DNA of 12,341 bases from Escherichia coli (GTDB lineage Bacteria > Pseudomonadota > Gammaproteobacteria > Enterobacterales > Enterobacteriaceae), in NCBI RefSeq assembly GCF_003334815.1, contig NZ_QOWO01000059.1, one strand, 5' to 3'. Each line of letters begins with the position of its first letter. Positions within the stretch are counted from its first letter, which is position 1. Below the pieces are notes generated by a model that did not search any database, was not told the origin of the DNA, and saw only the letters and a program-made list of their open reading frames with translations. A program made the translations under genes and the position numbers. This document shows positions 11,486 through 12,183 of this stretch, in pieces.

Positions 11486-12183
11486 TTACAGAAATGGTAA
11501 AGAAGGCATAATTCCCCGTGAAATACTGGCTAAGAAGCCTTTATCTGGTTGTTCTTCTTTATTGATTAAAGGAAGGTCATCCAAATCGCCCAGCAAATAC
11601 GTATTTTTTGCCTGCCAGTCAATCATCCATATTTTCAGCAGTGGATAAGCCAGACCGCCCGTAATCCCGGATATCACTACCAACGCACACATGCGATAAA
11701 GCATACCGTGGTAAGTTAAAGTTGAGCGAAAACGAATACGCCCATCATTCAGTGACAGGTTGCTCATAAAATGATTTCGCAACGACACCGTTAAATAACT
11801 GGTGCTAACAGCAATCCCAAAATAATAGATTAACTGCGCGATTATCATTTTACGTTGCATTTCCATAAATTGCTGTAAATTCTCAATATCATCATTTGCA
11901 TACACAGAACTATCATACGCATTTAATATTTGATCGAAGATAATATAACCAGCAACAGCGAGAAAAGGTAATAAAGCTAAAAATGCGAGGATGGCATATT
12001 TTATACAATACGCAGTATCTAATTTCACCTTGAAACGATGTATACCGAAACTGGTATTGCTCCAGAGAAAACTCATTACCAGGCTATATAAAGTACCATT
12101 AAAAATACCAATGAAAACAATACCAACTATTGCCATCAGAACCACAGATATAATAACACTACTTGAACTATTGGCATGTAGCA
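11486..12183 (-). pseudogene. yjgN: yjgN-like inner membrane protein gene (DUF898 family by K-12 synteny), C-terminal portion only; 5' part separated by IS10 insertion
   Basis: 232-codon open frame (…LYSLVMSFLWSNTSFG…PLINKEEQPDKGF…) with several hydrophobic segments. AT-rich by eye, in contrast to valS. Convergent with valS, as yjgN is in K-12. The apparent start at 12182..12184 is GTG created at the IS10 junction, and the frame upstream hits the IS10 transposase stop at 12197..12199. K-12 YjgN is about 398 aa, so roughly 165 N-terminal codons must lie beyond the IS. Identity as yjgN rests on synteny and length, not on a recalled sequence. Confidence 0.55.

What the first reader, a model, noticed from the sequence alone, without database searches (positions are those of the whole stretch)
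11486..12183. AT-rich composition of the yjgN-like gene next to GC-rich valS
By eye, base composition drops sharply immediately downstream of the valS terminator, and the membrane-protein ORF is markedly AT-rich. This suggests an anciently acquired or H-NS-silenced gene, and could explain tolerance of the IS10 insertion.
Basis: seen in the sequence. Interest (0 to 1): 0.25.

Follow-up and report, generated by a model that had tools for sequence, protein, structure and literature searches.

The report
AT-rich, H-NS-silenced yjgN gene remnant
The AT-rich stretch after valS is real: it is the back half of yjgN, a dispensable membrane-protein gene that E. coli keeps switched off with H-NS and that looks like an old foreign replacement allele, so this is an ordinary silenced gene with one unexpected feature, two very different versions within the species.

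Summary
Window 11486..12183 has 37.1% GC (GC3 0.35), against 53.8% for the rest. The change-point lies at 11474, inside the valS terminator hairpin. Codon usage deviates far more than in any flanking core gene.

The segment is the 3' 231 codons of yjgN (DUF898 inner-membrane protein), cut at 12183/12184 by IS10. In intact relatives the AT-rich tract is a sharply bounded cassette of about 1.55 kb: valS stop, yjgN, the spacer, and the first ~100 nt of yjgM.

E. coli carries two cassette types. Type A (this window, K-12) is in about 4,585 of 5,426 complete genomes. Type B is in about 794 and is only 41% identical in protein. Type B follows the species tree (E. albertii 85%, Salmonella 64%). Type A is closest to Superficieibacter (66%), so it is probably an old replacement allele from outside Escherichia.

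Published K-12 data list yjgN as H-NS-bound and show about 50-fold derepression in a Δhns ΔstpA mutant. A Keio ΔyjgN mutant is viable, and the window's nearest relatives already carry a premature stop.

This is an ordinary kind of feature, and the allele dimorphism is a modest new detail.

The parts
8577..11432 (+). valS (valine-tRNA ligase), the GC-rich core neighbour used as the compositional reference (GC 0.551, GC3 0.658)
   Evidence: ORF list; annotation of 100%-identical relatives; composition
11452..11477 (.). G+C-rich hairpin with T-runs on both strands. It is a bidirectional intrinsic-terminator-like site shared by the convergent valS and yjgN genes. The GC change-point (11474) falls in its 3' arm.
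11486..12183 (-). 3' remnant of yjgN, type-A allele: codons about 168-398 plus the stop, covering DUF898/PF05987 model positions 128-316 of 336. GC is 0.371. This is the finding itself.
   Evidence: Pfam E = 6e-16; annotated as yjgN / DUF898 in relatives; composition and codon statistics
12175..12183 (.). CATGTAGCA (TGCTACATG in the yjgN sense): the 9-bp IS10 target. It is seen duplicated at both junctions in strain BS15R-A. It matches one GCT half-site of the NGCTNAGCN consensus.
12184..12341 (-). End of IS10 (annotated as ISVsa5), starting CTGAGAGATCCCC. The 3' end of the transposase gene reads toward yjgN, with its stop codon at 12197..12199. The window ends inside the element.

Best explanation
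Window 11486..12183 is the back 58% of yjgN, a DUF898 polytopic inner-membrane protein gene of unknown biochemical function. It belongs to a sharply bounded AT-rich cassette of about 1.55 kb that sits between the conserved valS and yjgM genes. A yjgN gene is an old tenant of this junction across Enterobacterales, and it is always lower in GC than valS. E. coli holds two deeply diverged cassettes. Type B descends vertically, together with those of E. albertii and Salmonella. Type A, the one in this window and in K-12, is most likely a xenologous allele. It would have been swapped in long ago by recombination in the conserved flanks from a lineage nearer to Superficieibacter, and it is the most AT-rich version known (37% GC). 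Because it is so AT-rich, H-NS with StpA as back-up coats the cassette, starting from the 29%-GC yjgM/yjgN spacer, and keeps transcription near zero under laboratory conditions. A silent, non-essential gene can be disrupted at no cost. This explains why the lineage carries a premature stop codon in its nearest relatives and an IS10 insertion here. What is shown here: the composition, the codon bias, the cassette boundaries, the allele phylogeny and the distribution. What is taken from published K-12 experiments: H-NS binding, derepression and knockout viability. What is inferred: that the swap went from outside into E. coli, that silencing also holds in this strain, and that silence is the reason the insertion persisted.
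For: Composition and codon usage.
The AT-rich tract is confined to yjgN plus the spacer in intact relatives.
Type A and type B haplotypes are 94-100% identical in valS up to its stop. They are 36-73% identical across about 1.55 kb and 93-100% identical again from about 100 nt into yjgM.
Distribution: type A is in 4584-4589 and type B in 793-794 of 5426 complete genomes.
Synteny yjgM-yjgN-valS holds in Superficieibacter, Citrobacter sedlakii, Phytobacter, Scandinavium, Salmonella enterica and S. bongori.
Protein identities: type B is 85% to E. albertii, 64% to Salmonella and 55% to Leclercia. Type A is 66% to Superficieibacter and 41-42% to the type-B lineage. ValS is 93-100% throughout.
yjgN minus valS GC is -0.04 to -0.135 in 20 other loci and -0.175 for type A.
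dN/dS is 0.13-0.16, so both types are real, constrained genes. Type A dS within E. coli is 0.08 against 0.10 for valS, so type A is old in the species.
H-NS data: SELEX site in the spacer. The gene is in the H-NS-bound list and rises by log2FC 2.7 in a hns deletion mutant. Counts go from about 24 in wild type to about 1190 in a hns stpA double deletion mutant, log2FC 5.72.
Dispensability: the Keio yjgN mutant was used as a viable strain, and strains identical to the window over 78..12183 carry a stop at codon 143.
Against: No AT-rich donor was found. The closest non-E. coli relatives (62-66% identity) have 45-48% GC, so much of the AT enrichment must have arisen after the split, or the donor is unsampled.
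HGT catalogues used in two papers score yjgN as not horizontally acquired.
There are no mobility genes, tRNA or repeats at the cassette borders.
The H-NS data are for K-12, not this strain. Here the remnant is separated from its promoter and spacer by IS10, so its present chromatin state is unknown.
Only one other genome shares the insertion, and there codon 143 is intact. Prior pseudogenisation in the window's strain is therefore unproven.
Tolerance of an insertion needs only non-essentiality, not silencing.
Confidence: 0.7

Rival explanations
1. There was no transfer. yjgN is a native, weakly expressed and weakly constrained gene whose sequence has drifted toward the AT-rich mutational equilibrium in place. 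H-NS binding is a consequence of that drift. Types A and B are old alleles or paralogues that were sorted differently among lineages.
For: Every yjgN at this locus is below valS in GC, in all 20+ lineages examined. GC3 of 0.36 is near the GC expected from E. coli's GC-to-AT mutation bias (own knowledge). No AT-rich donor exists among 5.8 billion proteins. HGT catalogues say 'no'. Phytobacter carries two tandem DUF898 genes at this locus, so paralogues do occur here.
Against: dN/dS of 0.13-0.16 shows purifying selection, not free decay. Type A is closer to Superficieibacter (66%) than to E. albertii or Salmonella (41-42%), while type B mirrors the species tree. The cassette borders are sharp to within about 100 nt against 94-100% identical flanks. 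Retaining two alleles as a polymorphism since before the Escherichia/Salmonella split would be extraordinary. No sampled genome shows A-like and B-like copies in tandem.
Confidence: 0.17
2. The two cassette types are maintained in E. coli by balancing or diversifying selection on the membrane protein, for example as an entry receptor or immunity-like determinant. AT-richness and silencing would then be secondary.
For: Two or three allele classes coexist at appreciable frequency (85% / 15%, with type B itself split into sub-variants about 9% apart). YjgN evolves far faster than its neighbours. An ST131 preprint reports a change of yjgN gene content between subclades, consistent with allele switching.
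Against: dN/dS is below 0.3 in every comparison. There is no hit to any defence, phage or curated family. The gene is nearly silent in K-12, and premature stops are common. Nothing links YjgN to any ligand.
Confidence: 0.08
3. The low GC is only a by-product of the amino-acid composition of a hydrophobic membrane protein, or of a recent island insertion.
For: The protein is rich in Ile, Leu, Phe, Asn and Tyr. The expected GC for this protein with neighbour codon choice is 0.49, below the core value of 0.55.
Against: Observed GC is 0.372, 12 points below that expectation, and GC3 is 0.35. lptF and lptG are membrane proteins with normal GC. As for a recent island: type A is in about 85% of E. 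coli genomes, its dS equals that of valS, and it has no mobility genes.
Confidence: 0.03

Closest known systems
E. coli K-12 yjgN (b4257), 'inner membrane protein YjgN', Pfam DUF898 (PF05987)
   Same: Same gene, same position (convergent with valS, divergent from yjgM) and same allele class. It is 97.4% identical over the retained 696 nt. The composition is the same (K-12 GC 0.371, GC3 0.358).
   Different: The window holds only codons about 168-398, because IS10 interrupts the gene. The strain background is not K-12. The closest intact relatives have a stop at codon 143.
Xenogeneic silencing of AT-rich genes by H-NS/StpA in Enterobacteriaceae (e.g. bgl, yjjQ-bglJ, csgD, many y-genes)
   Same: AT content is far above the genome mean. 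H-NS binds at the promoter spacer. Derepression is modest in a hns deletion mutant and very strong in a hns stpA double deletion mutant or with netropsin.
   Different: This is a single-gene cassette at a conserved, syntenic locus without any island hallmarks. Standard HGT catalogues do not flag it. The 'foreign' DNA is an allele of a gene that the lineage already had.
Hypervariable cassettes exchanged by recombination in conserved flanks (e.g. O-antigen cluster between galF and gnd, hsd 'immigration control region', mutS-rpoS region)
   Same: Sharp borders against near-identical flanks. Deeply diverged alternative alleles within one species. The allele tree is incongruent with the species tree. 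Allele switching occurs inside a clone (ST131).
   Different: It is much smaller (one gene, about 1.55 kb), with no known selective agent and no known phenotype.
IS10/Tn10-type insertion, including the IS10-fosA5-IS10 composite transposon in E. coli BS15R-A
   Same: Identical junction sequence and orientation. A 9-bp target duplication is visible in BS15R-A. The target carries one GCT half-site of the IS10 consensus.
   Different: The window shows only one junction and 158 nt of the element, so whether a lone IS10 or the fosA5 transposon lies beyond is unknown. The yjgN flank differs from BS15R-A at 6 of 698 positions.

Membership tests
YjgN / DUF898 (PF05987) | Significant match to the Pfam DUF898 profile | tested here: met
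   The 231-residue remnant matches model positions 128-316 of 336, E = 6e-16. Full-length relatives carry PF05987.
YjgN / DUF898 (PF05987) | Orthologous position to K-12 b4257 (between valS and yjgM, convergent with valS) | tested here: met
   Annotation of K-12 and of strains 100% identical to the window. The far side (yjgM) lies beyond IS10 and is not in the window.
H-NS/StpA-silenced xenogeneic gene | AT content and codon usage clearly deviating from the host core genes | tested here: met
   GC 0.371 against 0.538; GC3 0.35 against 0.55-0.69; chi-square per codon 1.0 against 0.08-0.40.
H-NS/StpA-silenced xenogeneic gene | H-NS occupancy of the locus | not testable with these tools
   Published for K-12 only: a SELEX site in the yjgM/yjgN spacer (PMC3946193), and the gene in the 'H-NS bound' list of PMC8894471. 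Not known for this strain or for the remnant now detached from its spacer.
H-NS/StpA-silenced xenogeneic gene | Derepression when H-NS (and StpA) are removed | not testable with these tools
   Published for K-12: log2FC 1.4-2.7 in a hns deletion mutant, 5.72 in a hns stpA double deletion mutant and 3.29 with netropsin (PMC12460168; PMC8894471).
H-NS/StpA-silenced xenogeneic gene | Foreign origin shown by a gene tree that conflicts with the species tree | tested here: met
   Type A is 66% identical to Superficieibacter and 41-42% to the E. albertii and Salmonella orthologues. Type B follows the species tree. This rests on a neighbour-joining tree and an identity matrix only, with no bootstrap or reconciliation.
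Genomic island (classical) | Integrase, tRNA, direct repeats or other mobility genes at the borders, and presence/absence polymorphism | tested here: not met
   The borders are the valS stop and the 5' end of yjgM, with no mobility genes. About 99% of E. coli genomes carry one allele or the other. It is therefore not an island.
IS10 insertion | IS10 terminal sequence abutting the target, with a 9-bp target duplication resembling NGCTNAGCN | tested here: inconclusive
   The terminus is present and annotated as ISVsa5/IS10 in the one genome with the same junction. The 9-bp duplication TGCTACATG is seen there, with a half-site match only. The second junction lies outside the window.

The most novel reading that the evidence does not exclude
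The valS-yjgM junction may be a balanced, recombination-swapped 'cassette' locus. Under this reading E. coli maintains two or three deeply diverged YjgN membrane proteins because they differ in susceptibility to some phage, bacteriocin or contact-dependent toxin that enters through the inner membrane. H-NS silencing would limit exposure. The dimorphism would then be adaptive rather than a historical accident.
Probability: 0.08. Interest if true: 0.55.

Novelty: new member of a known kind. Interest (0 to 1): 0.27.

Why it matters
The finding itself matters little. It is a clean textbook case of an AT-rich gene that H-NS and StpA keep silent and that can therefore be lost.

Two points have some value. 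First, it shows that compositional 'foreignness' can arise by replacing one allele of a resident gene with another. Island-based HGT catalogues miss this, and here they score yjgN as not acquired. Second, E. coli carries two yjgN alleles only 41% identical in protein (about 85% / 15% of complete genomes), with cassette borders sharp to about 100 nt. I found no description of this in the searchable literature. It gives a handle on the function of an uncharacterised family (DUF898) and serves as a marker of recombination in this region, for example between ST131 subclades.

Tried and rejected
- Standard Sharp-Li CAI: the Biopython index is not installed. I used a leave-one-out local CAI and a chi-square test against the window's seven core genes instead.
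- Amino-acid composition as the cause: rejected, because it explains only about one third of the deficit.
- Excess of promoter-like sites in the AT-rich remnant: not seen with the simple scan (2 found, 2.4 expected).
- Function of YjgN: no hits in PADLOC, NCBIfam, PHROGs or the PDB.
- An AT-rich donor for type A: none found. All relatives at 47-66% identity have 45-51% GC.
- H-NS supplements: there was no yjgN entry, or no text was held, for PMC4720273, PMC3923964, PMC4288151 and PMC12632814.
- One protein look-up failed (Intestinirhabdus P0032).
- A polarised GC-to-AT versus AT-to-GC substitution test on type-A alleles: considered and not run, because too few polymorphic sites and no close outgroup would give little power.

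Full report
**Observation**

- Window 11486..12183 has 37.1% GC, against 53.8% for 1..11485.
- No other 698-bp window falls below 46.1% (mean 53.8%, sd 2.4%), so the segment lies about 6.9 sd below the mean.
- A 2x2 test against the rest of the chromosomal sequence gives p = 1.4e-17.
- A maximum-likelihood change-point over valS plus the segment falls after 11474. That is in the 3' arm of the G+C-rich hairpin 11452..11477, which scores as a terminator on both strands.
- GC3 is 0.35, against 0.55-0.69 in the seven flanking core genes.
- Synonymous codon choice deviates by a chi-square of 1.0 per codon, against 0.08-0.40 for the core genes. A local adaptation index is 0.477 against 0.55-0.78.
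- lptF and lptG are also polytopic membrane proteins and have normal composition.
- Recoding the same protein with the neighbours' codon preferences would give 49% GC. Amino-acid composition therefore accounts for about one third of the deficit and synonymous choice for two thirds.

**What the segment is**

- The minus-strand reading frame 11486..12183 is the last 231 codons of yjgN. It matches Pfam DUF898 (E = 6e-16, model positions 128-316 of 336). It is annotated as yjgN / YjgN family / DUF898 in K-12 and in thousands of genomes.
- At 12183/12184 the gene is cut by the end of IS10 (annotated ISVsa5), which runs to the end of the window.
- The window is not K-12. It is 100% identical over 78..12183 to strains such as 300709 and ML35, whereas valS differs from K-12 at 64 sites.
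- The IS10 junction occurs in only one of 5,426 complete E. coli genomes, strain BS15R-A. There the element is an IS10-'lysR-fosA5-IS10 composite transposon flanked by the 9-bp duplication TGCTACATG.
- That target has one GCT half-site of the IS10 consensus NGCTNAGCN (the consensus is from my own knowledge).

**Extent of the AT-rich tract**

- In intact relatives the low-GC tract covers only yjgN and the 192-bp yjgN/yjgM spacer (29% GC).
- valS on one side and yjgM, rraB and argI on the other are normal.
- It is a one-gene AT-rich cassette, not an island. No integrase, tRNA or repeats lie at its borders.

**Comparative evidence**

- A yjgN gene occupies the same yjgM-yjgN-valS position in Superficieibacter, Citrobacter sedlakii, Phytobacter massiliensis (two tandem copies), Scandinavium, Salmonella enterica and S. 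bongori.
- I anchored a scan of one genome per species on the ValS C-terminus and recovered 80 Enterobacterales loci. yjgN is patchy among them. It is present in Pluralibacter, Kosakonia cowanii, Leclercia, Mangrovibacter, Siccibacter, Pectobacterium, Brenneria, Rahnella and Erwinia persicina. It is absent next to valS in Klebsiella, Kluyvera, most Citrobacter and S. enterica subsp. diarizonae.
- In every locus that has it, yjgN is lower in GC than valS (difference -0.04 to -0.135). The E. coli K-12/window allele is the extreme at -0.175, with a GC3 difference of -0.284.
- YjgN also evolves very fast: 22-75% identity between genera whose ValS proteins are 86-96% identical.

**Two alleles in E. 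coli**

- The species representative picked up by the scan and E. albertii carry a yjgN that is only 41-42% identical in protein to the K-12 gene.
- Among 5,426 complete genomes, the window/K-12 type ('type A') is present in 4,584-4,589. The other ('type B', GC about 42%) is present in 793-794. Together they cover about 99%.
- Type B itself has sub-variants about 9% apart in nucleotide sequence.
- Aligning a type-A and a type-B haplotype shows 94-100% identity through valS up to its stop codon. Identity then falls to 36-73% across about 1.55 kb (yjgN, the spacer and the first ~100 nt of yjgM). It returns to 93-100% beyond that.
- Type B tracks the species tree: E. coli to E. albertii 85%, to Salmonella 64%, to Leclercia 55%. 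Type A is sister to Superficieibacter (66%) and then to Citrobacter sedlakii (47%).
- The most economical reading is that type B is the vertically inherited Escherichia allele. Type A would be a xenologous allele that replaced it by recombination in the conserved flanks.
- The replacement is old. Type-A alleles differ among E. coli lineages by dS of about 0.08, like valS at 0.10. Type A is found in K-12, B, O157:H7, O111:H8 and others.
- Both types are under purifying selection (dN/dS 0.13-0.16), so they are real genes.
- No AT-rich donor was found. The nearest relatives have 45-48% GC. Part of the AT enrichment must therefore have arisen on the type-A branch, or the donor is unsampled. This is the main weakness of the transfer reading and the main support for its rival, in-place drift.
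- An ST131 preprint lists yjgN, bdcAR, chpBS and yjgH as 'gained' by clade C, and arcA, argF and arcC as present only in clade B0. This fits the type-B haplotype I fetched, which has arcA beyond argI. It also fits an O25b:H4-ST131 genome that carries type A. Together these point to allele switching by recombination within a clone.

**H-NS**

I could not test binding, but published K-12 experiments agree with one another.
- Genomic SELEX marks the yjgM/yjgN spacer as containing an H-NS site (PMC3946193).
- Forrest et al. list yjgN, with yjgM and yjgL, among H-NS-bound genes. They report log2FC 2.71 in a Δhns mutant (P = 7.8e-13), 63% AT, and 'horizontally acquired: no' (PMC8894471).
- The 2025 Micro-C study gives counts of 21-29 in wild type, 47-89 in Δhns, 6-16 in ΔstpA, 924-1,516 in Δhns ΔstpA (log2FC 5.72, p = 8.6e-156) and 146-267 with netropsin (PMC12460168).
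- That table also carries a '+' in a column printed as 'HIN', which I take to be the paper's H-NS-dependent hairpin (CHIN) flag, and a blank in the HTG column.
- The gene is thus nearly silent, and its silence depends on H-NS with StpA as back-up.

**Tolerance of the insertion**

- The Keio ΔyjgN strain is viable and was used in a feeding screen (PMC5153853).
- The genomes identical to the window over 78..12183 have a stop at codon 143, upstream of the insertion point at about codon 167. The gene may therefore already have been dead in this lineage, but that part lies beyond IS10 and cannot be seen.
- In BS15R-A codon 143 is intact.
- Silence plus dispensability suffices to explain tolerance. 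I recall reports that H-NS biases Tn10 and IS903 targeting, but I did not test this.

**Verdict**

- Three corrections apply. The strain is not K-12. The 'acquisition' is an allele swap at an old locus rather than an insertion. Tolerance needs no more than non-essentiality.
- The feature is an ordinary member of a well-known class. The allele dimorphism is a modest, apparently undescribed addition. None of the 13 papers in the library that mention yjgN has it in its title or abstract, and the five passages I read do not describe the dimorphism.

Noticed in passing
window 1..77 (junction at 77/78), with 78..721 (-) and 770..854 (-): The first 77 bases are the end of an IS5-family element annotated as ISKpn26. 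It truncates the site-specific integrase of the island next to tRNA-Leu(CAA) (leuX). This junction is found in none of 5,426 complete E. coli genomes. The chromosomal stretch in the window is therefore bracketed by two different IS elements.
   Followed up: partly
window 12184..12341; L001 4751..8710 (E. coli BS15R-A): The only genome with the identical yjgN/IS10 junction carries an IS10-'lysR-fosA5-IS10 composite transposon there, with a 9-bp duplication. fosA5 confers fosfomycin resistance and, to my knowledge, comes from the Klebsiella chromosome. The window differs from that strain at 6 of 698 yjgN positions and at 0 positions in IS10. So the same site was hit twice, or the flank recombined later. 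Whether the window's strain carries fosA5 cannot be seen.
   Followed up: partly
L003 14409..15605 (-), L002 5054..6250 (-): The strains 100% identical to the window over 78..12183 have yjgN annotated as a pseudogene, with an internal stop at codon 143. Truncated YjgN products also form large protein clusters (553 and 859 members, against 11,875 for the full-length form). This suggests recurrent inactivation of type A.
   Followed up: partly
L009 7803..8987, L010 7800..8984, L089 4037..5224: E. coli has a second yjgN allele class (type B, 395 aa, about 42% GC), only 41% identical in protein to the K-12 type. It is present in about 15% of complete genomes, including known B2 strains (83972, NRG 857C, APEC O1:K1:H7), and in E. 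albertii. It has sub-variants about 9% apart in nucleotide sequence.
   Followed up: yes
L003 17475..17938 versus L089 (3' end of argI/argF): Between the type-A and type-B haplotypes the last ~460 nt of the ornithine carbamoyltransferase gene drop to about 80% identity. In the type-B strain the downstream genes also differ (arcA arginine deiminase, whereas K-12 has yjgL, tabA and bdcR downstream). This marks another recombination boundary about 2 kb from the yjgN cassette.
   Followed up: no
L007 5001..7582 and L020 3521..6099 (Phytobacter massiliensis): Two tandem DUF898 genes lie between yjgM and valS. They are only 36% identical to each other and belong to different deep branches of the family (GC 0.48 and 0.54).
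   Followed up: no
window 5851..6300: A second, milder GC dip (0.42-0.44) lies at the divergent lptF/pepA intergenic region. Relatives annotate the 16-codon small protein ytgA there.
   Followed up: no
L005, L006, L007, L008, L091, L092 (between rraB and yjgM): Other genera carry miaE and one further variable gene between rraB and yjgM. E. coli lacks these, so the whole argI-valS interval is a region of gene-content flux.
   Followed up: no
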